Shown: positions 3,538-12,544 of the stretch, in pieces | How the letters are laid out: each line of letters starts with the position of its first letter | Numbering within the stretch: position 1 is the first letter of the stretch | Source: a virus | Taxonomy: Duplodnaviria > Heunggongvirae > Uroviricota > Caudoviricetes | Virus record (IMG/VR): IMGVR_UViG_2671180460_000002 | DNA length: 36,986 bases | Direction: 5' to 3' (one strand) | Notes under the pieces: model-generated | What the model was told of the DNA's origin: nothing | Seen by the model: only the letters and a program-made list of their open reading frames with translations | Database searches by the model: none | Made by a program: the position numbers and the translations under genes

Positions 3538-4431
3538 ATGAGTTTAATTACGCAATTAAATGACGTAATGGCCCGTCGCGGCTATACACAAACCCACGTT
3601 GCCCGTGCTATTGGTCGTAGCAGCGCCGTTATCAACCAGTATTTGCAGGGTAAATATCAGGGCGATATCACTGATATCGAAGAGCGAATTTCTGCCTTTG
3701 TCAGCCGTGAACGGGAAAAAGAAAACAACCGGCGTGTAAAAGCAAGTTTTGTGACTACAGGTATGGCCGCCAAAGGGTTGGAGGCACTGGCCTATGCTCA
3801 TCTGGAGTGTGAAATTAGCGTGTTGTATGGCGCGGCAGGTCTTGGCAAAACAATGATTTTGCGCGAATACGCCGCCAGAAACCGGGACGCAATACTGATT
3901 GAGGCTGACCCGGGCTATACAGCCAGGACACTGCTGGAGGAGTTGTGCCGCCAGTTGGGGGTAAAGGTTCGCGGCAATATTCACGAACTGATTAATGCCT
4001 GTGTACACGAATTGCGTGACTCCGGTCGCCTGCTGATGGTGGATGAAGCCGAACTGCTCCCCTATCGTGCGCTGGAAGTTCTGCGTCGTCTGCATGACAA
4101 GGCGGGCGTCGGTGTTGCCCTGGCTGGTATGCCGCGCCTGTTGATTAATCTTAAAGGCAATCGTGGGGAGTTCGCGCAGCTATACAGTCGGGTGGCTCTT
4201 TCGCTGGACCTCGGCGATACGCTGGCGCAGAAGGATTTCATCCAGATAGCCGCTGAACTGATGCCGGAAGCAGCAGCGCCTGAAATCTGTGAAGCACTTT
4301 ACACACGCTCACGGGGTAATGCCCGACGCCTGTTTAAACTTGTGCGTGGGGTCTACCGGATTTGTGATATCAGCGATGCCCCGGTCAGCGTGCAGGCTAT
4401 TGATGATTTCGCGGAAATGTTAATTCACTGA
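3538..4431 (+). CDS. MuB-like AAA+ ATPase, transposition target DNA activator
   Basis: 297 aa with Walker A GAAGLGKT and N-terminal HTH-like segment; directly downstream of the transposase as in Mu. Confidence 0.85.
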   Translation: MSLITQLNDVMARRGYTQTHVARAIGRSSAVINQYLQGKYQGDITDIEERISAFVSREREKENNRRVKASFVTTGMAAKGLEALAYAHLECEISVLYGAAGLGKTMILREYAARNRDAILIEADPGYTARTLLEELCRQLGVKVRGNIHELINACVHELRDSGRLLMVDEAELLPYRALEVLRRLHDKAGVGVALAGMPRLLINLKGNRGEFAQLYSRVALSLDLGDTLAQKDFIQIAAELMPEAAAPEICEALYTRSRGNARRLFKLVRGVYRICDISDAPVSVQAIDDFAEMLIH

Positions 4432-4444
4432 GTAAAGGTCAGGT

Positions 4445-4777
4445 ATGGAACAAATTGCCATTAAAAAAGAAATTAAAGCACTACGGAATATCGGTCGTAA
4501 TGGTTGTATTTATTTTAATGGATCCCCCGGTGAAATTATTCCGTTTGTTGATTGCTTCGTGCCGAGTGAACTGCGCATTGATTTGTATTCCCGGGAAAGG
4601 GAAATCAATGGAATCGGAAATACCAGTGATGACTGGGACGTTGATGAATGCTGCGCGCGATTAATGATTATCCCTTTTGAGCAGAATTTACAGGGGTTTC
4701 GTCGGGCTTATCGTCTTGCGCGTATGTGTGCCCGTCTTCCCCGTTATCAGCCACGACTTGCGTTTGCACTCAGATAA
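4445..4777 (+). CDS. hypothetical protein (early accessory region)
   Basis: ORF in an AT-rich early region, ATG at 4445. Confidence 0.35.
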   Translation: MEQIAIKKEIKALRNIGRNGCIYFNGSPGEIIPFVDCFVPSELRIDLYSREREINGIGNTSDDWDVDECCARLMIIPFEQNLQGFRRAYRLARMCARLPRYQPRLAFALR

Positions 4778-4815
4778 TGCAGCGCAGAACTGTTAATTCA
4801 CTGATGGAGAACAAA

Positions 4816-5043
4816 ATGATAGACAAGCAGACCATTAATGCCGTCCGTTCCCGTGCCCGTGTGGCCATCCACACCACCGGTGGTCGTGTAACGGGACAGC
4901 ATCACCGTTTACCTGTGGTTTATGCCTGCCCACCCGTGGGTGGTCCTGTATGGCCGGTAACGGAAATCATCCAGACATTCAGCGGCCTGCGTCGTGTGGT
5001 TAAAACGTCCTGTATCGACGGCTGCACCGTCGTATGGCAATAA
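4816..5043 (+). CDS. hypothetical protein
   Basis: ATG at 4816 preceded by GGAG; the track ORF from 4726 probably over-extends. Confidence 0.35.
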   Translation: MIDKQTINAVRSRARVAIHTTGGRVTGQHHRLPVVYACPPVGGPVWPVTEIIQTFSGLRRVVKTSCIDGCTVVWQ

Positions 5044-5058
5044 AACGAGGAATTAAAA

Positions 5059-5310
5059 GTGAGCGTGAAATTAACAATAGTATTTACCGACCTGGGTAAT
5101 AACCAGTGCCATAACCTTATTCGGGTGGAAAATGGCGACAATGCCACACTCGAAGAAGCGGCAAGAACTCTGGGGACTGTCGGCGCTATTTGTACGGTTC
5201 TGAAGGAGAAACACGGAAATGAACGGCTTGATCTGCAAATCTACCATGACTACGTGAAACAACTGGCACAGGGATGTCCGTATATTCCTCAAGAAACACA
5301 AATGCATTGA
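5059..5310 (+). CDS. hypothetical protein
   Basis: GTG start at 5059 preceded by GAGGAA. Confidence 0.35.
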   Translation: MSVKLTIVFTDLGNNQCHNLIRVENGDNATLEEAARTLGTVGAICTVLKEKHGNERLDLQIYHDYVKQLAQGCPYIPQETQMH

Positions 5311-5320
5311 GAGATGAAAA

Positions 5321-5512
5321 ATGTCACTGGAGCTTGAATTAACTTTCAGCCTGGACAGGCCAGGTAAACCGGAGAAAGCCGTCGCGACGTATCAGTTGTC
5401 GCCTGATGTCACGGGAGAGCAGGTTTCCGACATTATCATAAAAACTCACTGTTTTATGAACGAAATTATTTTTAAATCGTTTGATTTCAAAGGAGAAAAA
5501 TATGGCGGTTAA
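5321..5512 (+). CDS. hypothetical small protein
   Basis: ATG at 5321 preceded by GAGAG; 63 aa. Confidence 0.3.
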   Translation: MSLELELTFSLDRPGKPEKAVATYQLSPDVTGEQVSDIIIKTHCFMNEIIFKSFDFKGEKYGG

Positions 5513-5717
5513 GTTAGAAGTAATTATCTATACCGATGAAAACGGTACGCTTCGTGTCAGGAGTATGGGGGCTGTTGATAAAAAAGGATTTACGGATGAA
5601 GAGGTCGGTGTAAGACAACGGTTATGGGAGGTAATGAATCAAACGCTTAATAAAGAATTTAACGGCGTTGATTTATTTTCTGTTGGCGTGGAACCCTGCG
5701 CACATAACACACATTAA
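5502..5717 (+). CDS. hypothetical small protein
   Basis: ATG at 5502 preceded by AGGAGAAAA; overlaps the previous ORF end. Confidence 0.35.
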   Translation: MAVKLEVIIYTDENGTLRVRSMGAVDKKGFTDEEVGVRQRLWEVMNQTLNKEFNGVDLFSVGVEPCAHNTH

Positions 5718-5746
5718 TCTGTAAATATCACTGAGGTAATTTAATT

Positions 5747-6391
5747 ATGACGACTGAAAATAAAGTTAAGCAATACACGAAAACTGAAGCGCCTGAAGGT
5801 TACTGGGTGGATGCACGTGGCGTAATGACACCTGAAAGCCTGATTAAGGATATTGACCGCGACCGCGAGCAGCTGGTCGGTGAGATTGTCGAACTGGTGA
5901 TTGCTGCCTCCGCCTCGCTGCGTGATTTGAAACTGCGCGCGTTTGGCGATATTCAGGCATTTATTGACCTGTCGGCTGAGAAATACGGCGCTGTGAAAGG
6001 CGGTAAAAAAGGGAATATCACGCTTTACAGCTTTGACGGGTGTTACAAGATTCAGCGCGCCATGCAGGACCGTATCGCGTTTGATGAACGCATTCAGACC
6101 GCGAAGTCGCTGATTGATGATTGCCTGGCTGACTGGACGGAAGGTGCACGCCCTGAAATTAAGGCCATCATCAGTGAGGCATTCAGCACGGACAAGGAAG
6201 GCAACATCAACACCGGTCGCGTTCTGGCCCTGCGTCGCCTCGAGATTGAGGACGAACGCTGGAATAACGCCATGTCACTGATTGGTGAAGCCGTCCAGGT
6301 GATTGGCAGCAAAAGCTATATCCGCGTGTATGAGCGCGTCGGTGATTCTGCTGAATACCGCGCAATCCCGCTTGATATTGCAGGGGTTTAA
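5747..6391 (+). CDS. hypothetical protein, resembles DUF3164-type proteins of Mu-like prophages
   Basis: 214 aa acidic protein at the position after B where DUF3164 proteins occur in Mu-like phages; assignment from memory, not searched. No resemblance to Mu Gam. Confidence 0.45.
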   Translation: MTTENKVKQYTKTEAPEGYWVDARGVMTPESLIKDIDRDREQLVGEIVELVIAASASLRDLKLRAFGDIQAFIDLSAEKYGAVKGGKKGNITLYSFDGCYKIQRAMQDRIAFDERIQTAKSLIDDCLADWTEGARPEIKAIISEAFSTDKEGNINTGRVLALRRLEIEDERWNNAMSLIGEAVQVIGSKSYIRVYERVGDSAEYRAIPLDIAGV

Positions 6392-6392
6392 C

Positions 6393-6626
6393 ATGCATCA
6401 GGATATCAAAGAGTACAGAGCCAGAAATAGTTGCGCGGCGTATTCGCTGGGCGCGTCCAGAGCAGAACAACGCGGCGATTATGCCGAAGCTGAAAAACTG
6501 TGGCGTAAGGTAGCACAAAGCCCGTGTAGTACCCTGCGCCGCATCTGGGCGGAACACCGGGCAGAGTTCTGTGCCAATGCTCACCTGAAAGGATGGAAGC
6601 CGCCTCATGAACGCGAAGAACTTTAA
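6393..6626 (+). CDS. hypothetical protein
   Basis: ATG at 6393 one nt after the preceding stop; 77 aa. Confidence 0.35.
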   Translation: MHQDIKEYRARNSCAAYSLGASRAEQRGDYAEAEKLWRKVAQSPCSTLRRIWAEHRAEFCANAHLKGWKPPHEREEL

Positions 6627-6798
6627 TCAGTTATATCCGCCAGGAACTCGCTTCATGCACATTGCACACCCGGCACTGCGTGGTGGTCGTGTGGTGAAAA
6701 CCGTTTCACCTGCCAGAGATTTTAAATGTGGTTGTGTGGTTGAAATTAATGTCGAGCCTTATTTCGTTAAAGTCGAAACGCTGAAAGCACCGCATTAA
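6607..6798 (+). CDS. hypothetical small protein
   Basis: 63-aa ORF overlapping the previous gene by 20 nt. Confidence 0.3.
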   Translation: MNAKNFNQLYPPGTRFMHIAHPALRGGRVVKTVSPARDFKCGCVVEINVEPYFVKVETLKAPH

Positions 6799-6805
6799 TT
6801 TAATT

Positions 6806-6864
6806 TGTTTTTAATTGTTATTTAAAACAGGCGTAAATCCGCCGGGGCTGGCTTACGCCTGAAT
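6806..6864 (+). repeat. 58-bp direct repeat copy 1: AT-rich TGTTTTTAATT box followed by GC hairpin GGCGTAAATCCGCCGGGGCTGGCTTACGCC
   Basis: Near-identical copy at 7432-7489. Hairpin stem GGCGTAA/TTACGCC; no U-tract follows. Confidence 0.7.
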
Positions 6865-6879
6865 TAAGGGGATTTGTAT

Positions 6880-7425
6880 ATGAAAGATAAAGTCTGGGAT
6901 TTTATTGTTTCTCCTGAAGGTTTTGCTACCCGTTCATCTGAGAAGTTAACCAATGTAACGTTATGGGCTTCATCGTTGCTGGGACGTCTGGGAGGACCCG
7001 GTAGTTTTATGGATGTGGTACTTAATGCCCAGATTGCCGGGAATGCTATGGCCAGTAAGGGGGCTTATATTCAGGGGGATTTGTTCGCCATGATGGCAAA
7101 TGACACGGTGGCACTGTACCTCGCGACACGCAACATACTGACAAGAATATCCATGCAGTCATGTAGGGAGGGTATGGAAGACCTCCGGGACATTCTTGAA
7201 GGTGATTTGCTCACTATTTCAGGCGTGCAGGAATCCCTCCCGCGTCAGCTGCGGTTTATTGACCTGATGGAGTCATATAAAGATAAGCCTGATTTTTTTC
7301 AGATTCGATTCAGCGGAATGGAACTGCTGGATGAATATTATCCGCTGGATTCGATTTCCCGTGATGTGAAGGCGTTCGTAAAGTCTGTTGACCGTCATTA
7401 CCGGAAAGCTGAACGTCGTAGTTAA
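6880..7425 (+). CDS. hypothetical protein (AT-rich cargo gene flanked by direct repeats)
   Basis: ATG at 6880 with AAGGGG RBS 8 nt upstream; the track start at 6874 is a TTG. Visibly lower GC than the late region. Confidence 0.5.
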   Translation: MKDKVWDFIVSPEGFATRSSEKLTNVTLWASSLLGRLGGPGSFMDVVLNAQIAGNAMASKGAYIQGDLFAMMANDTVALYLATRNILTRISMQSCREGMEDLRDILEGDLLTISGVQESLPRQLRFIDLMESYKDKPDFFQIRFSGMELLDEYYPLDSISRDVKAFVKSVDRHYRKAERRS

Positions 7426-7431
7426 TAAGTC

Positions 7432-7489
7432 TGTTTTTAATTTTATTTGTATATGGCGTAAACCCGCCGGGGCTGGCTTACGCCTGAAT
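7432..7489 (+). repeat. 58-bp direct repeat copy 2 (same AT box plus hairpin)
   Basis: Matches 6806-6864 with a few substitutions; ends 16 nt before the ATG at 7506. Confidence 0.7.
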
Positions 7490-7505
7490 CTGAGGAAGTT
7501 TATTT

Positions 7506-7688
7506 ATGAATATCGCTAAGCAAAAAAAATTCTCCCGCGAAATTAATCTGACAATTGTTTGTTTTAATCGTCTTGCGACCAGTTCTCAGTCGACAGCAGA
7601 TGTTCATTCAGTACCGCAGCCAGAACGAACTCCCCACGTTCCTGAAGGCTGTGCCGGAAGTTGTGTAATTCAGAATTCAGGATGCTGA
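7506..7688 (+). CDS. hypothetical small protein
   Basis: ATG at 7506 with GAGGAAG RBS, positioned after hairpin copy 2 exactly as 6880 is after copy 1; coding quality uncertain. Confidence 0.3.
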   Translation: MNIAKQKKFSREINLTIVCFNRLATSSQSTADVHSVPQPERTPHVPEGCAGSCVIQNSGC

Positions 7689-7701
7689 GGTTCAGACGAC
7701 C

Positions 7702-8412
7702 ATGAAAGATAAATACATTGCCAAAATCAAAAAACTGTTACGCCTTGCCAGAGGAACATCAAGCCCGGAAGAAGCCGCTAACGCTATTGCAAAAGCCCAG
7801 GCTTATATGCGCCAGCATGGTATCAGCGAAAACGACGCGGAATTGTTCGACATTCAGGAAGCTGCCAGCGCGGGTGCGCCGAGTGATGCCAGTACGCCGC
7901 CGCTTTATATGCACATCCTGTGTGACCTGGTCTGTAAAGCCTTCGGTGTCGAGTGTTACATCTCCGGCGAATACCGGGCTTCTGGTTCACTCAAACGTTA
8001 CGTGCGTTTTTATGGTTCTGACAGCCGCCCGGAAATTGCGGCCTATGCGTTTGATGTGCTTTCCCGTCAGATGATGGCAGAGCGCAAGAAATATCAGGAT
8101 AAACACTGCAAACGTTGTGGTCCGTCCACGCGGGTAGCCCGTGGCGACCAGTTCTGCGAAGGCTGGGCCTTTGGTGCCCGTGACGTGATTACGGTGTATG
8201 ACGTCTCCCCGGAAGAGAAAGGTCGTATTGAGCTTTACCGGCAGAGCCTGCACAGCTCTAAAGGGCTGCGCGAAGGGAATATGCGCACAGCTAAAGCGTG
8301 TCGGGGTGCAGAGTTTGCCGCTACTGCGGGTTTTATCGCCGGGAAAAACGCCAGACTGCATCAGGGGGTTAATGGTCAGAGCAACAGACCGCTGGCACTG
8401 GGGAGGGGATAA
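7702..8412 (+). CDS. hypothetical protein with DUF2786-like N-terminus
   Basis: N-terminus MKDKYIAKIKKLLRLARGTSSPEEAANAIAKAQ resembles the DUF2786 motif common in phage and plasmid accessory genes; from memory. Confidence 0.5.
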   Translation: MKDKYIAKIKKLLRLARGTSSPEEAANAIAKAQAYMRQHGISENDAELFDIQEAASAGAPSDASTPPLYMHILCDLVCKAFGVECYISGEYRASGSLKRYVRFYGSDSRPEIAAYAFDVLSRQMMAERKKYQDKHCKRCGPSTRVARGDQFCEGWAFGARDVITVYDVSPEEKGRIELYRQSLHSSKGLREGNMRTAKACRGAEFAATAGFIAGKNARLHQGVNGQSNRPLALGRG

Positions 8413-8414
8413 CG

Positions 8415-8642
8415 ATGGCTTTTAAACTTCTCAGTGTTACCGAAGCAATATACCAGCCGCCAGGAGAACGCCACGAATACAGGATGAATGACGGCAGCGC
8501 GGCGGTTGAGTTTCCCAAATATCCGGGGGCTTCCCGGTGGCGGTTCTATGACAGTGTGGGACGCCGGATTATTAAAAGAACCGTGCACAACGCCATGAAA
8601 GCCGCTGTAGAACGTCACAAAAGGAGGTTTAACTGCAAATGA
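8415..8642 (+). CDS. hypothetical protein
   Basis: ATG at 8415 preceded by GGGAGGGG. Confidence 0.4.
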   Translation: MAFKLLSVTEAIYQPPGERHEYRMNDGSAAVEFPKYPGASRWRFYDSVGRRIIKRTVHNAMKAAVERHKRRFNCK

Positions 8643-8869
8643 ATATTGAATTTTATAACTATGGGACTAAAGCAAAAATCATTGTTACCTGCTGGCTCTG
8701 GGAGTTTCGCCGCTATAACCGGGTTGTGGATGCGGCGCTGTTTGCGGCCCCTGAAGTGCACCATCAGAGCGGTGGCGGTCTTTTAATGAGAACCGTCATC
8801 TACGGTAAGACGGTCCCGATGTTACGGGCGTTTAAAGTGGCAAAACAGGAGGCTGGCAATGGTCATTGA
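8639..8869 (+). CDS. hypothetical protein
   Basis: ATG at 8639 preceded by AAGGAGG; overlaps the previous stop. Confidence 0.4.
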   Translation: MNIEFYNYGTKAKIIVTCWLWEFRRYNRVVDAALFAAPEVHHQSGGGLLMRTVIYGKTVPMLRAFKVAKQEAGNGH

Positions 8870-9149
8870 TAAAACGATAACGATAGATGTAGCCATGAAT
8901 GCAGGCATCGCTCTTCTCGGTTGGTGTTACATCATGCTCCGCGCCGGGATGTGGCTGTCCCTTGTATTCCTGAAAACATGGAATAAGCACCGTAAACAGA
9001 CGCAGCAGCAGAAGGCAATGAATGCGTTTTTTGAGGCCTTCGATATCGACAGTATAGAGCCGGGAGAACCAACCCGCGTTATCCCCGTAGGTGATGTCGT
9101 GATTTTGGTATACCGGAGTGAAAAGAATGAACAGGAGGTGGCGCAGTGA
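8859..9149 (+). CDS. hypothetical protein with one predicted membrane helix
   Basis: ATG at 8859 preceded by CAGGAGG; hydrophobic stretch AGIALLGWCYIMLRAGMWLSLVFL. Confidence 0.4.
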   Translation: MVIDKTITIDVAMNAGIALLGWCYIMLRAGMWLSLVFLKTWNKHRKQTQQQKAMNAFFEAFDIDSIEPGEPTRVIPVGDVVILVYRSEKNEQEVAQ

Positions 9150-9310
9150 ACCAGCAAACCAGAATAAGCGATAAGAGTCTGACCAGACTGATTGCTGATG
9201 CGGACAAGGTGCTGGAGCGGAACACCCCGGTTGCCGATGAGGAATGGTGGCAGGATTTCCGGGCCGCAATGCTGGAACTTCAGGAACGTCGTCGGGAGGA
9301 GTTGAAGTGA
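9146..9310 (+). CDS. hypothetical small protein (54 aa)
   Basis: GTG at 9146 overlapping the upstream TGA, AGGAGG 8 nt upstream. Not in the supplied track because it is under 60 aa. Confidence 0.3.
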   Translation: MNQQTRISDKSLTRLIADADKVLERNTPVADEEWWQDFRAAMLELQERRREELK

Positions 9311-9330
9311 GCAAGGTGAAAGAGCGCGGC

Positions 9331-10014
9331 ATGATTTTTAATGATGAGATGGTCCGGGCCATCCTCGAAGGAAGGAAGACGCAGACTCGCCGACCTGTAA
9401 AAAATGTCAGGGCCGATAACTGCCTGGTTATCCGTAAACCGACAAAGAAACGCAATGGTGTCTATACCCACGTTATGGATGCACCTGAACATGGTTTATG
9501 CCCGTTCGGTAACGTTGGTGATCGCATATGGGTCCGTGAAGCGTGGGCGATATTAGGCAATGAGGATGGTTGCAGTGTGGACTGGAACGACAACCTTTGT
9601 CGTGGCGATGAGAAGAACGCAGCAAGGATTTATCGGGCCAGTTGTGAGCAAAAACCGGGGGATTATGGCTTATGGTCGATACCCGATGATGCCGACTGGA
9701 AGCCTCACACTGTGAATGAAAAGTTTGATGGTGGGTGGCGTCAATCAATTCACATGCCGCGCTGGGCTTCGCGTATTTTGCTGGAAATTACCGACGTGCG
9801 TGTGGAACGGCTGCATGACATGAGCGAGGCAGATGCTAAAGCGGAAGGTGTATCTCCGGCAACGTACAAAATTACGCCGCCGGAAGCTGTTTATCGCGTT
9901 GGTTTTGGTGATATCTGGCGCGGTATTTACGGGCAAGAGAACTGGCTATCTAACCCGTGGGTATGGGTAATTGAGTTTAAGCGTATTCAGGAGAAAACCA
10001 GTGAGCAAGATTGA
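9331..10014 (+). CDS. hypothetical protein with ASCH-like N-terminal motif
   Basis: MIFNDEMVRAILEGRKTQTRRP...WVREAW resembles ASCH (PUA-like) domain signatures; from memory. Confidence 0.45.
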   Translation: MIFNDEMVRAILEGRKTQTRRPVKNVRADNCLVIRKPTKKRNGVYTHVMDAPEHGLCPFGNVGDRIWVREAWAILGNEDGCSVDWNDNLCRGDEKNAARIYRASCEQKPGDYGLWSIPDDADWKPHTVNEKFDGGWRQSIHMPRWASRILLEITDVRVERLHDMSEADAKAEGVSPATYKITPPEAVYRVGFGDIWRGIYGQENWLSNPWVWVIEFKRIQEKTSEQD

Positions 10015-10594
10015 CTATCAGGCACTGCGAATGGCGGCAGAAAATGCAACACCAGGCGAATGGTGTACTGATGACTACCATGGGGTAATTGCCGATGCCG
10101 GACTGAACGCAAATTACTACATAGCATCATGCTCAGGACCAGATAATCGCTCCAATAAGCGATTCATAGCCGCAGCCAATCCGGCTGCTGTGCTGGTACT
10201 GCTGGATGAACTGGAGTATTACAAATCACGCGAAGAGCGGGTTACAAAGCTGGTTATGGATAACTCGACAAGTTGGGATGCTCTTTACAAGCAGCTGGAA
10301 GCCGCAGAGAAGCGCATAGCAGAACTGGAAGCACGGGAAACAAAACCAGCCAAAGGCGAAGTTCTTGTCGTTGTATCTGGTTTTACTGGTTGCGGAAAAA
10401 GCGCCATTGCCGGGGAAATAGAAATCGCGATGAAGGCTATTGGTGTACCGGTTAAGTGGACTAATGGCGATGCAGAAAAGCGCATGACTGGCGCTGACTG
10501 GCTGACAGCAATTGAGATGTACAAACCAACTGTGCGCATCGTGGAAGTTAATGTGCCACGCGTCGCTGGCATTCGCATCAAAGGAGGTGAGTAG
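10001..10594 (+). CDS. Ead/Ea22-like protein
   Basis: ...ATPGEWCTDDYHGV...NKRFIAAANPAAVLVLLDELE resembles the conserved N-terminal region of lambdoid Ea22-family proteins. GTG at 10001 with AGGAG upstream; alternative ATG at 10031. Confidence 0.5.
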   Translation: MSKIDYQALRMAAENATPGEWCTDDYHGVIADAGLNANYYIASCSGPDNRSNKRFIAAANPAAVLVLLDELEYYKSREERVTKLVMDNSTSWDALYKQLEAAEKRIAELEARETKPAKGEVLVVVSGFTGCGKSAIAGEIEIAMKAIGVPVKWTNGDAEKRMTGADWLTAIEMYKPTVRIVEVNVPRVAGIRIKGGE

Positions 10595-10767
10595 TGCGTG
10601 TGGCATGTATCGGCTTGTTACCGTACCCGACTCGTTTTTGGGCTTCTGCGCTAATTGCAAAGCCGTATGTCCTGATGGCTGACAGCATCATCCCTGCACC
10701 GAAACGCCGTACAGGCATTGCGGCGGCGAGACGAGCAGCAAAGAAACGCAGGAGAACAAAACGATGA
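10594..10767 (+). CDS. possible small basic protein (57 aa)
   Basis: GTG at 10594 with GGAGG 7 nt upstream; stop overlaps the next ATG. Weak. Confidence 0.2.
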   Translation: MRVACIGLLPYPTRFWASALIAKPYVLMADSIIPAPKRRTGIAAARRAAKKRRRTKR

Positions 10768-10946
10768 AAAACCGTAAGGCAAAAATTCTGTTAGCTCGCA
10801 GAAACGGTGTTGGGATCTGGCGATGGTTGAGGATTAGTAACAGACGAGTGAGGTTGACGGGGTGTTGCGGGGTGATGGGGCACAGCTGTTGCAAAAAGCC
10901 CAGCGCGGCGCAAAACCGCTGGAAGAATCACACTAACGCAAAGTAA
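10764..10946 (+). CDS. possible small Cys-rich protein
   Basis: 60-aa ORF, ATG overlapping the previous stop; weak. Confidence 0.2.
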   Translation: MKNRKAKILLARRNGVGIWRWLRISNRRVRLTGCCGVMGHSCCKKPSAAQNRWKNHTNAK

Positions 10947-10966
10947 TTAAATAATAACCAATAACA

Positions 10967-11010
10967 GACCAAAACATATGTTTTGGTCTGCCAAAAGTAG
11001 TGTTTTGGTC
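10967..11010. promoter_or_regulatory. twin palindromes GACCAAAACATATGTTTTGGTC and GCCAAAAGTAGTGTTTTGGTC
   Basis: Perfect 22-bp palindrome at 10967-10988 immediately followed by an imperfect copy, just upstream of the ATG at 11014. Confidence 0.5.
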
Positions 11011-11013
11011 ATT

Positions 11014-11292
11014 ATGAAGATTGAACAAATCGGAATGGCAGCCTTCCGGCAACAGGCTGAAAGCGGTGGTGTGGATGAGTTCGTCGTGCAGCGGTTCGGT
11101 GGTGTGTATCACCTCTTCGCTGTGAATCGCCGCGCCGGGGTGTCCTATTTTCTACAGGAACGCCGTGGCGATTACAAGACGTGGCTGTCTCTTGACCGTG
11201 CCGCCGCGTTCCTGTCGGGGATTGGTGTTTCTCGTTTTACCGTGCGTTTTGAGGATAACAAACATGCTGAAAAAGATGATCGGAGCCATTAA
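11014..11292 (+). CDS. hypothetical protein
   Basis: ATG at 11014 after the twin palindromes; the track start at 10978 lies inside the palindrome. 3' end overlaps the GemA-like gene in another frame. Confidence 0.35.
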   Translation: MKIEQIGMAAFRQQAESGGVDEFVVQRFGGVYHLFAVNRRAGVSYFLQERRGDYKTWLSLDRAAAFLSGIGVSRFTVRFEDNKHAEKDDRSH

Positions 11293-11677
11293 AGCCGGTC
11301 AGGCGTATCTGGGGTGGGATGATGCCCTTTATCGCCAGACACTGGCTCGCCTGACCGGTAAAACCAGCACCACACGCTGCAATCTCGATGAACTGCGCAT
11401 CATCCGGGAATACATGCACGAACAGGGATTTCCGCGCAAAGCGCCCGCCGGTAAAGGTCGCCGCCCCCGTGTTGCAATGAGCAGAAAATCGGTATTATCC
11501 AAAATTGAGGCGTTGCTGGCTGATGCCGGTCGTTCCTGGGCGTATACGGAAGGACTGGCATCTCACATGTATAAGCAACATGTGATCGAATGGCTGACAG
11601 ATGATCAACTGTTCGGGGTGATGGTGGCGCTGACAAAAGACGCCAGAAAACGAGCCAGAGCAGCACGTAAACAATAA
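11264..11677 (+). CDS. GemA-like protein (DUF1018-type)
   Basis: N-terminus ...AIKAGQAYLGWDDALYRQTLARLTGKTSTTRCNLDELRIIREYMHEQGF matches the GemA/gp16 pattern; position just upstream of the Mor/C gene as in Mu. Confidence 0.55.
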   Translation: MLKKMIGAIKAGQAYLGWDDALYRQTLARLTGKTSTTRCNLDELRIIREYMHEQGFPRKAPAGKGRRPRVAMSRKSVLSKIEALLADAGRSWAYTEGLASHMYKQHVIEWLTDDQLFGVMVALTKDARKRARAARKQ

Positions 11678-11682
11678 AGAAT

Positions 11683-11710
11683 CAGCCCCTGCCTTGCAGG
11701 GGCTTTTTTG
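11683..11710 (+). terminator. intrinsic terminator ending the early operon
   Basis: AGCCCCTGC-ctt-GCAGGGGCT stem-loop followed by TTTTTTG, 6 nt after the GemA-like stop. Confidence 0.7.
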
Positions 11711-11713
11711 TGG

Positions 11714-11743
11714 TCTGTACAGGCGATCATGTATGGCTATAAT
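11714..11743 (+). promoter_or_regulatory. putative sigma70-type promoter for the Mor/C-family gene
   Basis: Consensus -10 TATAAT at 11738-11743, 30 nt upstream of the start codon; -35 is weak (TGTACA). Confidence 0.4.
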
Positions 11744-11772
11744 AACAGTAAGTTACTACCGGAGACGCCATC

Positions 11773-12240
11773 ATGCAGACCTTCAGTGAAACAGATCTTC
11801 GCGATGCGCAGGCACTACTGCCCGATTCCGTGCAGCAACTGATTAGCGTGATTGGCTTTCCCGCTCTGACCCGGTTAATTCGTTCTTTTGGTGGTGTGAC
11901 GTTAAGCGGTAAAACCGGCGCACACACCGAACGCACCGGCGGTGTCCATGCCCTGTTACATGACGTGCTGACCGAAGACGAAATCAACAAACTGATCCGC
12001 TTTCTTGGCGGTGCGCCGTTTTATATTCCCCGTTGCGATCATGCGTTACGTGCCCTGCGTAACTCCCGTTTTATGGCTGATTTACAGCAACATATAAAAG
12101 GCGGATGCTCACACCGGCAGGCGCTGGCACTGCTTTGTCCACGTTACGGAATTTCAGACCGGTACGCATGGCAACTGATACACCGACGACAAAAACAGAT
12201 TTCGCTGAAGAGCCCCACCCAGGTGGGGCTTTTTGATTAA
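11773..12240 (+). CDS. Mor/C-family transcriptional activator (late gene activator)
   Basis: Contains the Mor-family ...GGAPFYIPR... segment followed by a C-terminal HTH-like region; located after the early terminator and before the lysis and structural genes. Confidence 0.8.
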   Translation: MQTFSETDLRDAQALLPDSVQQLISVIGFPALTRLIRSFGGVTLSGKTGAHTERTGGVHALLHDVLTEDEINKLIRFLGGAPFYIPRCDHALRALRNSRFMADLQQHIKGGCSHRQALALLCPRYGISDRYAWQLIHRRQKQISLKSPTQVGLFD

Positions 12241-12265
12241 TGGGCCTCAGAAAAAGGAGACACTT

Positions 12266-12544
12266 ATGACCAACTATACGGCCCTTGCCGAGTATACGGC
12301 CTACTCAGAGCAGGCCCGGGATGCTGCCGGACGCCGCTTCGCTTATATGAAAAATCTGTCCAGCCAGCTAAACCGAATGGCCGAACAACCGGATATGATT
12401 GTTCATGAAGAAGCGTTGCAGTGTGCCATTGCTGATATTATCGCCAGTGAAAACGAGATGCGAGCCGCTCTGGAAAAAGCAAACGCCTCTGCTCCGCTTT
12501 GCAATAAACCTCTTATTACGCCGGATTCCCTTTCCCGCTTCTGA
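12266..12544 (+). CDS. hypothetical protein
   Basis: ATG at 12266 preceded by AAGGAG; 92 aa. Confidence 0.4.
   Translation: MTNYTALAEYTAYSEQARDAAGRRFAYMKNLSSQLNRMAEQPDMIVHEEALQCAIADIIASENEMRAALEKANASAPLCNKPLITPDSLSRF

What the first reader, a model, noticed from the sequence alone, without database searches (positions are those of the whole stretch)
6806..7489. AT-rich gene bracketed by two 58-bp direct repeats that each contain a GC hairpin
Copies at 6806-6864 and 7432-7489 are near-identical: a TGTTTTTAATTNTTATTT box followed by the hairpin GGCGTAAA(T/C)CCGCCGGGGCTGGCTTACGCC and TGAAT. They flank gene 6880..7425, which is visibly AT-richer than the late genes. Each copy is followed 16-17 nt later by an RBS and ATG (6880 and 7506). 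A conserved linear box plus hairpin in two copies is reminiscent of nut-type antitermination or RNA-processing signals; alternatively the repeats mark a recombination-acquired cargo gene. No U-tract follows, so they are not classical terminators.
Basis: seen in the sequence. Interest (0 to 1): 0.65.

Follow-up and report, generated by a model that had tools for sequence, protein, structure and literature searches.

The report
Conserved Mu-phage intergenic hairpin bracketing cargo gene
The two repeats are copies of a previously undescribed, highly conserved hairpin-containing spacer found between early genes of Mu-type phages (including phage Mu itself), and accessory genes are inserted, lost and swapped at this spot.

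Summary
Two ~58-bp units (hairpins 6830-6859 and 7455-7484, 29/30 identical) bracket ORF 6880-7425 in the early operon of a Mu-like E. coli prophage.

The unit is one conserved intercistronic module: stop codon, ~31-nt AU-rich spacer, 30-nt interrupted GC hairpin, WRAAUY, Shine-Dalgarno 6-7 nt later, ATG. One copy follows a conserved 63-aa gene in 78 of 80 independently ascertained relatives and in 13 genera of Enterobacterales. It is also in Pseudomonas phage VW-6B and, after gam, in Mu, D108 and SfMu.

The stem is supported by covariation. The hairpin stays ~91% identical where flanking DNA is ~63% identical.

It is not a sense terminator, sigma70 promoter (depleted), nut site, REP, attC or any Rfam family.

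Relatives carry 0-3 cargo genes after the resident hairpin, some with their own copy. One relative lacks the cargo and has a single hybrid unit, and sequence identity jumps at the units.

Best reading: a cis-acting element of the early mRNA that also serves as a homology patch for cassette exchange. It resembles T4-type PeSLs but has no promoter. Its molecular function and the acting strand remain unproven.

The parts
6607..6798 (+). Anchor gene: conserved 63-aa protein (motif VEINxEPYF, phrog_5591) that precedes the resident hairpin in this phage clade
   Evidence: The AF2 model is SH3/Tudor-like but has no significant PDB match.
6799..6829 (+). AU-rich spacer of unit 1, with phased TTTAA blocks and no sigma70-like site
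6830..6859 (+). Hairpin copy 1 (resident copy): 7-bp outer stem GGCGTAA/TTACGCC, A.C mismatch at position 8/23, inner stem, loop CGGG
6860..6879 (+). Leader of the cargo gene: TGAAT plus Shine-Dalgarno AAGGGG. It travels with the cargo gene: the same leader follows a different hairpin in L001.
6880..7425 (+). Cargo gene, 181 aa, phrog_7741, no Pfam family, function unknown. Present in roughly half of the related E. coli prophages.
7426..7454 (+). AU-rich spacer of unit 2. It shares TGTTTTTAATT(G)TTATTT with unit 1, with a 1-nt indel.
7455..7484 (+). Hairpin copy 2 (cassette-associated copy), 29/30 identical to copy 1
7485..7505 (+). Leader TGAATCTGAGGAAG... of the next ORF, identical to the right flank of the single hybrid unit in cargo-less relatives
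7506..7688 (+). 60-aa ORF, unannotated in RefSeq relatives but intact in 14 of 14 distinct homologs. It is itself a variable segment, absent in L004/L060/L065.
7702..8412 (+). DUF2786/DUF7168 gene, the default gene directly after the hairpin in about 35 relatives

Best explanation
The window is a Mu-like prophage, and the repeats lie inside its long early operon. Each repeat is a copy of a conserved intercistronic module with this layout:
- the stop codon of the upstream gene;
- a ~31-nt AU-rich spacer;
- a 30-nt interrupted GC hairpin (GGCG...CGCC ends, internal mismatch at position 8/23, loop (C/A)GGG);
- WRAAUY;
- a Shine-Dalgarno sequence 6-7 nt after the hairpin;
- the start codon.

Copy 1 is the resident element that nearly every phage of this clade has after the 63-aa anchor gene. 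Mu, D108 and SfMu have it after gam.

Copy 2 belongs to a cargo cassette (leader, 181-aa gene, spacer, hairpin). I infer that this cassette entered by homologous recombination at the near-invariant hairpin, for example by integration of a circular or linear donor carrying one unit. This left the cargo gene between two direct repeats. Recombination between the two copies would delete it again and leave one hybrid unit, which is the state seen in relatives.

Shown: the element, its conservation, its base-paired stem, its fixed position relative to the stop codon and the Shine-Dalgarno sequence, the presence/absence and array polymorphisms, and the mosaic identity breaks at the units.

Inferred: the hairpin acts in cis in the sense early mRNA. 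The most likely role is to keep the downstream ribosome-binding site exposed and independent of whatever gene lies upstream, and/or to act as a barrier that stabilises mRNA segments in the ~80-nt untranslated gap. The exchange mechanism is inferred to be homology-driven rather than site-specific.
For: Identity of the locus: Mu transposase, MuB-like ATPase, Ner-like HTH, GemA and Mor.

Cassette polymorphism:
- The default architecture is anchor-HP-DUF2786 in about 35 loci. The window type is anchor-HP-cargo-HP-60aa-DUF2786. L003 lacks the cargo and has one hybrid unit. L001 has an extra DUF7448 gene. L073 has three units in series. L075 equals L073 minus one cassette, with the joint immediately 3' of the hairpin.
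- Identity to the window jumps at the units. L061: 90.4% (anchor) / 98.8% (cargo) / 94.8% (60-aa segment). L001: 93.6 / 99.5 / 98.1 / 94.6.

Conservation:
- 52 viral contigs carry the hairpin with diverse flanks.
- In a set ascertained through the anchor protein only, 61 of 80 loci have the canonical hairpin and 78 of 80 have a homologous hairpin about 31 nt after the stop codon.
- 19 of 20 hits in species-representative genomes, across 13 enterobacterial genera, show the same context.
- It is also in Klebsiella phage ST405-OXA48phi1.1, Pseudomonas phage VW-6B, Mu, D108 and SfMu.
- For pairs with <50% identical anchor proteins, the hairpin is 91% identical, against 63-65% for the gene, spacer and leader.

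Structure: 8 of 14 pairs change on both sides. The covariation score is 0.242 vs 0.129 in shuffles (0/500), and slid controls reach at most 0.080.

Sense-strand hints:
- At normally paired positions, G.U on the plus strand occurs 16 times vs A.C 3 times.
- The Shine-Dalgarno sequence starts 6-7 nt after the hairpin in 89 units.
- Position +3 is A in 95% of units and +5 is T in 93%.
- Sense CM scores are 57-97 bits vs 31-46 bits for the antisense reflections.

Genes flanking the unit in the Mu clade and in this clade are unrelated, so the unit is independent of its neighbours.
Against: No transcript data were available, so an RNA-level role is not demonstrated.

The strand is not settled. The conserved A.C at position 8/23 is G.U on the minus strand and makes the minus-strand fold more stable in 21 of 30 variants.

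A purely structural 'insulator' hairpin would be expected to drift in sequence. The ~90% sequence conservation, invariant loop G's and phased TTTAA blocks point to a sequence-specific partner that this explanation does not name.

A strict four-gamete test found no complete reciprocal quartet of left and right flank classes. Gain, loss and replacement are shown, but reciprocal crossover inside the hairpin is not.

The hybrid unit in L003 cannot tell deletion from an ancestral empty site.

Some cassettes carry no hairpin of their own (SfMu DUF5420; the 60-, 71- and 125-aa genes), so not every insertion used two units.
Confidence: 0.6

Rival explanations
1. The hairpin is a sequence-specific binding site in the early mRNA, or in DNA, for a conserved phage or host factor. 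Candidates include a translational repressor or activator in the manner of Mu Com on mom mRNA, a ribonuclease, or an RNA polymerase/Nus-type factor. That factor would control expression of the accessory genes downstream. The repeat exists because each independently controlled cassette needs its own copy.
For: There is extreme sequence (not only structure) conservation: 91% identity where flanks are ~63%. G16-G18, the GGCG/CGCC ends and the internal mismatch are invariant. The immediate flanks are conserved (U at -1, A at +3, U at +5) and spacing to the Shine-Dalgarno sequence is fixed. The element is conserved from Enterobacterales to a Pseudomonas phage and to Mu. Two paralogous hairpin types in one genome (L073) keep the same invariant positions.
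Against: No candidate protein was identified. The adjacent 63-aa protein gives only a generic small beta-barrel model with no significant structural match, and it is absent from the Mu clade, which still has the hairpin. Some variants replace much of the stem by compensatory changes (L099, L109, Mu). Some cassette junctions use a quite different hairpin (L001 HP', L094). Both observations argue that structure matters more than sequence.
Confidence: 0.22
2. The element works on the antisense strand as an intrinsic terminator. It would stop leftward transcription from the variable accessory region, or from host read-through, from running into the transposition genes and repressor region.
For: The minus-strand fold is more stable: z -4.5 and -4.1 vs -1.25 and +0.06 for the plus strand, and it is more stable in 21 of 30 variants. 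49 of 109 units have at least 5 T in the 8 nt after the hairpin on the antisense strand, vs 2 of 109 on the sense strand.
Against: Window copy 2, the Mu/D108/SfMu units and L099-type units have no antisense U-tract. At normally paired positions wobble pairs favour the plus strand 16 to 3. All genes here are on the plus strand, and no minus-strand promoter-like site was found in 5500-9000. This reading does not explain the fixed 6-7-nt spacing to the sense Shine-Dalgarno sequence or the conserved +3A/+5U.
Confidence: 0.07
3. The units are nut-type processive antitermination sites (a linear box plus a hairpin) that modify RNA polymerase.
For: There is a superficial linear-box-plus-hairpin layout in an early operon. 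A few units have CTCTTTTAA-like strings in the spacer.
Against: boxA is exact in 0 of 113 units and within 1 mismatch in 3-5 of 113. The hairpin is a 13-14-bp interrupted stem with a 4-nt loop, not a 5-bp stem with a purine pentaloop. The site lies about 5.5 kb from the operon start. Copy number tracks cargo content (1-3). No internal terminators needing override were seen before 11684.
Confidence: 0.03
4. The hairpins are site-specific recombination sites (integron attC-like or another folded-DNA site) cut by a dedicated recombinase that mobilises the cassettes.
For: Cassette arrays of the form HP-gene-HP-gene-HP (L073) and a single hybrid site after loss resemble integron arrays. The imperfect hairpin has a conserved mismatch.
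Against: There are no attC core sites (RYYYAAC...GTTRRRY in 0 of 113 units). No tyrosine recombinase was seen among the early-region proteins scanned, and the only DDE enzyme is the Mu transposase. Joints are not at one fixed position: L075 joins 3' of the hairpin, and the window repeat extends ~20 nt 5' of it. Many cassettes lack a second site.
Confidence: 0.04

Closest known systems
PeSLs (promoter-early stem-loops) of T4-type phages (Arbiol et al. 2010, PMC2839356; Comeau et al. 2014, PMC4122927)
   Same: Both are repeated composite intergenic motifs running from the upstream stop codon in an AT-rich stretch through a stem-loop to the Shine-Dalgarno sequence and ATG of the next gene. Both flank ORFan genes in plastic regions. 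In both, an ORFan lies between two motifs in one phage and is replaced by a single motif in a close relative, which was explained by recombination between motifs (mini-circle excision and integration).
   Different: PeSLs are defined by a strong sigma70 early promoter, and their stem-loops act as terminators. Here sigma70-like sites are depleted (1 of 109 vs 12.7 expected) and there is no sense U-tract. PeSLs occur in dozens per genome with loosely conserved stems. Here there are 1-3 copies at one locus with a nearly invariant 30-nt hairpin. The phage type also differs: temperate transposable phages with one long repressor-controlled operon.
Botstein/Susskind 'linker' sequences of modular phage evolution (concept as summarised in PMC2839356; otherwise my own knowledge)
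   Same: A short conserved sequence at a module boundary gives homology for exchange and places the incoming gene in the right regulatory context.
   Different: That is a concept rather than a defined family. Here the linker is a specific, structured, covarying element with probable function of its own.
Intercistronic stabiliser hairpins / REP elements in polycistronic operons (e.g. malE-malF REP; my own knowledge)
   Same: A GC-rich hairpin in an untranslated gap of an operon, without a U-tract. Such hairpins are thought to block exonucleases and set differential expression.
   Different: REPs occur in hundreds of dispersed chromosomal copies. This element is confined to Mu-like prophages: 59 of 5426 E. 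coli genomes, 1-4 places each. It has fixed spacing to the next Shine-Dalgarno sequence and much stronger sequence conservation.
Lambda-type nut sites (boxA + boxB)
   Same: A linear segment followed by a hairpin in an early phage transcript.
   Different: There is no boxA, no boxB-like stem or loop, the location is wrong and the copy number is variable (see the membership test).
Integron attC cassette arrays
   Same: Promoterless single-gene cassettes in one orientation, separated by imperfect hairpins downstream of a fixed platform.
   Different: There are no core sites and no integrase, the joints are variable, and many cassettes lack a site of their own.

Membership tests
PeSL (T4-type promoter-early stem-loop) | Sigma70-like early promoter (-35/-10) within the motif | tested here: not met
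   No promoter-like site at either copy in the window scan. 1 of 109 distinct units matches the same criteria vs 12.7 +/- 3.4 in flank-shuffled controls.
PeSL (T4-type promoter-early stem-loop) | Stem-loop inside an AT-rich intergenic motif bounded by the upstream stop codon and the downstream SD/ATG | tested here: met
PeSL (T4-type promoter-early stem-loop) | Motifs flank variable ORFans; two motifs plus a gene in one phage vs a single motif in a relative | tested here: met
   Window vs L003; L073 vs L075
PeSL (T4-type promoter-early stem-loop) | Stem-loop terminates or attenuates sense transcription | not testable with these tools
   No U-tract on the sense strand (2 of 109 units). A reporter assay is needed.
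Lambda-type nut site | boxA (CGCTCTTA / GCTCTTTA) 5' of the hairpin | tested here: not met
   0 of 113 exact; 3-5 of 113 within 1 mismatch; neither window copy
Lambda-type nut site | boxB: ~15-nt hairpin with a 5-bp stem and a purine-rich pentaloop | tested here: not met
   30-nt hairpin with 13-14 pairs, an internal mismatch and a 4-nt loop CGGG/AGGG
Lambda-type nut site | Phage N-like arginine-rich antiterminator and downstream terminators to override | not tested
   No systematic search for an ARM protein. No strong terminator between 7.5 and 11.6 kb.
Intrinsic (Rho-independent) terminator | GC-rich hairpin immediately followed by a U-tract on the transcribed strand | tested here: not met
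   Sense strand: mean 2.6 T in 8 nt, and 2 of 109 units have at least 5 T. Antisense strand: 49 of 109, but absent in window copy 2 and in the Mu clade.
REP/BIME | Many dispersed copies in host chromosomal intergenic regions | tested here: not met
   59 of 5426 E. coli genomes, 1-4 places each, all at the Mu-like prophage locus
Integron attC | Inverted core sites RYYYAAC ... GTTRRRY | tested here: not met
   0 of 113 units
Integron attC | Adjacent IntI tyrosine recombinase | tested here: not met
   The early-region proteins scanned show Mu transposase (rve, Mu-transpos_C), an AAA ATPase, HTH proteins, GemA and Mor, and no integrase. The late region was not scanned.
Any Rfam family | Match at or near the gathering score | tested here: not met
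   Best overlaps are Lnt at 24.6 bits (gathering 55) and BTnc201 at 20.2 bits (gathering 105), both E>3

The most novel reading that the evidence does not exclude
The hairpin is a previously unrecognised, sequence-specifically recognised cis-regulatory RNA of transposable (Mu-type) phages, present in Mu itself between gam and gp11. It gates expression of the semi-essential accessory genes. At the same time it is the docking site of a homology-driven, integron-like cassette exchange system through which these phages trade accessory or anti-defence genes.
Probability: 0.3. Interest if true: 0.75.

Novelty: new variant of a known kind. Interest (0 to 1): 0.6.

Why it matters
Mu is one of the best-studied phages. 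Even so, its gam-gp11 gap carries an unannotated element that is conserved far better than any neighbouring gene, across Enterobacterales and in a Pseudomonas phage.

If the element controls expression of the accessory early genes, it is a new regulatory layer in the Mu early operon. That can be tested directly in an existing genetic system.

If it is also the preferred crossover point for accessory-gene cassettes, it gives a concrete molecular example of the long-postulated linker sequences of modular phage evolution, in temperate transposable phages. It would also mark a predictable hotspot in which to look for new accessory or anti-defence genes.

Tried and rejected
Rfam: a scan of 4400-12500 at E<=10 found nothing credible.

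Sequence searches in the phage collection: megablast and blastn of the unit found no match because the unit is too short and diverged. The element in named phages was found only through the anchor protein and the covariance model.

Anchor protein as an RNA binder: the AF2 model has pLDDT 70.7, and the best PDB hit has E 0.26 among generic SH3/Tudor barrels. This is uninformative, and the protein is absent from the Mu clade anyway.

Sigma70 promoter: rejected, because such sites are depleted.

boxA/nut and attC cores: rejected.

Four-gamete test for reciprocal recombination across the hairpin: 0 quartets, so reciprocal exchange is not proven.

Homology of the cargo gene or the DUF2786 gene to Mu gp11 or to SfMu DUF5420: none.

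Cargo function: no Pfam family, PHROG of unknown function, no phage-database hit, one E. albertii plasmid hit.

Other cargo genes are almost all ORFans. One is a sub-threshold Lar-like hit.

Literature: no paper holds the hairpin sequence, and none found describes a conserved hairpin in Mu-type early regions. The library lacks most older subscription-journal Mu papers, so this is not proof that it was never noted.

One alignment (A4) was spoiled by a wrong coordinate and was redone as A5.

Full report
OBSERVATION. The two units align at 6809-6864 / 7434-7489 with 84% identity over 56 nt. A second register, 6791-6816 / 7417-7442, is offset by one base, so the AT-rich box carries a 1-nt indel. 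The 30-nt hairpin (6830-6859, 7455-7484) differs at one base and occurs only twice in the window, against none in 100 shuffles. A covariance model of the whole unit finds just these two sites, at 90.3 and 74.0 bits. ORF 6880-7425 lies between them, and ATGs follow at 6880 and 7506. The gene has 46.7% GC against 56.4% in the late region. Its neighbours are equally AT-rich (45.3% and 43.7%), so composition is not evidence of foreign origin.

CONTEXT. The window is a Mu-like prophage. It has a CI-type repressor on the minus strand, then on the plus strand a Ner-like HTH protein, Mu transposase, a MuB-like ATPase, DUF3164, and later GemA (11165-11677) and Mor (11773-12240). Classical hairpin-plus-T-run terminators sit at 11684-11704 and 12211-12230. 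Between about 4.4 and 11 kb, the two copies are the only intergenic GC hairpins. The repeats therefore lie about 5.5 kb inside the long early operon, in the accessory (semi-essential) part. That label comes from my own knowledge of Mu.

RELATIVES AND THE CARGO POLYMORPHISM.
- The locus occurs in 58-59 of 5426 complete E. coli genomes.
- STEC313/308 (L001, L002) have an extra DUF7448 gene after copy 1. A different hairpin (GGCGCAGGTAAACAGGTCTGCGCC) sits between that gene and the cargo gene. It is preceded by a T-run and followed by the same TGAATTAAGGGG leader.
- E423 (L003) lacks the cargo gene and has a single unit made of the left flank of copy 1 and the right flank of copy 2.
- Z1323CEC0014 (L004) has the cargo gene, but copy 2 directly precedes the DUF2786 gene.
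- Across 84 loci the default architecture is anchor gene - hairpin - DUF2786 gene (about 35 loci). Others insert one to three genes.
- L073 has three units in series with two hairpin types. L075 equals L073 minus one cassette, with the joint at agatt|tcagg, just 3' of the hairpin. L077 has a second cassette that reuses the cargo gene's leader and first six codons.
- Identity to the window jumps at the units. L061 is 90.4% (anchor) / 98.8% (cargo) / 94.8% (next segment). L001 is 93.6 / 99.5 / 98.1 / 94.6. The cargo cassette therefore has a different history from its flanks.
- A strict four-gamete test gave no complete quartet. 11 left classes join more than one right class (up to 5), and 8 right classes join more than one left class. 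Gain, loss and replacement are shown; reciprocal crossover within the hairpin is not.

THE RESIDENT ELEMENT.
- An exact-pattern scan found the hairpin in 52 viral contigs. Both flanks and the downstream genes were very diverse. The primary copy was always about 31 nt after the stop codon of a small gene with the motif VEINxEPYF, which is the window's 63-aa ORF 6607-6798.
- To remove ascertainment bias I searched with that protein alone. Of 80 loci, 61 have the canonical hairpin (at most 3 mismatches), and 78 have a homologous GGCG...CGCC hairpin at that position. There are 23 sequence variants. One locus has an unrelated hairpin.
- In one-genome-per-species collections, 19 of 20 pattern hits, from 13 enterobacterial genera, show the same context. 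One Clostridia hit is a chance match inside a gene.
- Isolated phages also have it: Klebsiella phage ST405-OXA48phi1.1 and Pseudomonas phage VW-6B.
- The model also hits phage Mu itself at 41 bits (E 5e-7), in the unannotated 98-nt gap between gam and gp11 (record about 6369-6398). It hits D108 (45.7 bits), SfMu (58.2 bits) and a Mu-like insert in an Stx phage (31.5 bits).
- In SfMu and several Yersinia Mu-like phages, an extra gene sits exactly after this hairpin.
- The genes flanking the unit in the Mu clade and in this clade are unrelated.
- The hairpin is a conservation island. For pairs whose anchor proteins are <50% identical, the gene, spacer and leader are 63-65% identical, but the hairpin is 91% identical.

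STRUCTURE AND STRAND.
- On a gap-free alignment of 30 diverse units, 84.3% of cells pair and 8 of 14 pairs change on both sides. Examples are U-A to C-G at position 5/26, A-U to G-C at 6/25 and G-C to U-A at 12/19.
- The covariation score is 0.242 against 0.129 in shuffles (0/500) and at most 0.080 in slid controls (earlier set).
- The fold is a 7-bp outer stem, an internal mismatch or loop at 8/23 (and often 11/20), a 3-5-bp inner stem and a (C/A)GGG loop.
- The strand is only partly resolved. At normally paired positions, G.U on the plus strand outnumbers A.C by 16 to 3. The conserved A.C at 8/23 is G.U on the minus strand and makes the minus fold more stable in 21 of 30 variants. Overall pairing is 84.3% on plus and 85.0% on minus.
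- Context favours the sense strand. The Shine-Dalgarno sequence starts 6-7 nt after the hairpin in 89 units. Position +3 is A in 95% of units and +5 is T in 93%. The orientation relative to the genes never varies.

WHAT IT IS NOT.
- Not a sense-strand terminator: 2 of 109 units have a T-rich tail.
- Not a promoter: sigma70-like sites are depleted, 1 of 109 vs 12.7 +/- 3.4.
- Not a nut site: no boxA, and the hairpin, position and copy number are wrong.
- Not REP: it is confined to these prophages.
- Not attC: no core sites and no integrase seen.
- Not any Rfam family.

MECHANISM (committed view). One copy is a resident cis-element of the early operon. The other came with a cargo cassette. The near-invariant 30-nt hairpin plus conserved flanks (56-58 bp in this window) provide a homology patch at which cassettes are inserted, deleted and exchanged among co-resident or co-infecting Mu-type phages. 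This is formally like the PeSL mini-circle model in T4-type phages.

For the hairpin's own role, I consider a sense-mRNA function most likely. It would present the next ribosome-binding site in a constant, unpaired context just 3' of a stable hairpin. It could also act as a barrier that protects mRNA segments across an ~80-nt untranslated gap. Internal promoters seem to be avoided, which would keep the operon under repressor control. These functional steps are inferences.

The strength of sequence conservation leaves real room for a specific, still unknown binding partner (rival 1). The antisense-terminator reading is weak. It fails for copy 2 and for the Mu clade, and it does not explain the sense-side constraints.

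NOVELTY AND CAVEATS. I found no description of this element. The hairpin sequence is absent from the searchable literature, and the Mu GenBank records annotate nothing there. The library lacks many older Mu papers, so this is not conclusive. The element is best called a new variant of a known kind: an intercistronic stem-loop or linker that mediates modular shuffling, without the promoter that defines PeSLs and with unusually strong sequence conservation. No expression data were available. The direction of each event (gain vs loss), the recombination pathway and the acting strand remain to be tested.

Noticed in passing
window 7506-7688: A 60-aa ORF directly after copy 2 is not annotated in RefSeq relatives. 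It is intact in 14 of 14 distinct homologs and varies mostly at third codon positions (13 vs 7 and 6), so it is probably a real small gene. The whole segment is absent in some relatives (L004, L060, L065).
   Followed up: partly
window 6880-6891 and 7702-7713; L077 2729-3400: The cargo gene and the DUF2786 gene both begin ATGAAAGATAAA. In L077 a different 123-aa gene reuses the cargo gene's leader and first six codons (MKDKVW). This suggests that recombination joints can extend into the first codons.
   Followed up: partly
L159 2369-2398 (phage Mu AF083977, record ~6369-6398): Phage Mu itself carries the hairpin unit in the unannotated 98-nt gap between gam (gp10) and gp11. D108 and SfMu have it too. 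SfMu and Yersinia phages vB_YpM_3/23/Tongde have an extra gene inserted right after it.
   Followed up: yes
window 10965-11010: The palindrome CAGACCAAAACATATGTTTTGGTCTG is followed by a third TTTTGGTC copy, just upstream of and overlapping the start of ORF 10978 before GemA. It could be a regulator binding site.
   Followed up: no
window 11684-11704 and 12211-12230: There are two classical hairpin-plus-T-run terminators. One is right after GemA (the end of the early operon) and one is at the end of the Mor gene.
   Followed up: no
L023 ~2277 onward and L035 ~5085 onward (cargo proteins MSEYLK..., MSGFIKK...): Some cargo proteins docked after the hairpin resemble the N-terminal half of the anchor protein family (..FNAxFxxGSxFxY..). 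They look like paralogs inserted next to the original.
   Followed up: no
L020 ~2590 onward: One cargo gene after the hairpin is a borderline Lar-like restriction-alleviation protein (27.5 bits vs cutoff 28.6). This hints that anti-restriction functions can dock at this site.
   Followed up: no
AU-rich spacers of all units (window 6799-6829, 7426-7454): Three conserved TTTAA blocks spaced about 10-11 nt apart (positions -29..-27, -20..-16, -9..-4 relative to the hairpin). Sigma70-like promoter matches are significantly depleted despite ~85% A+T.
   Followed up: partly
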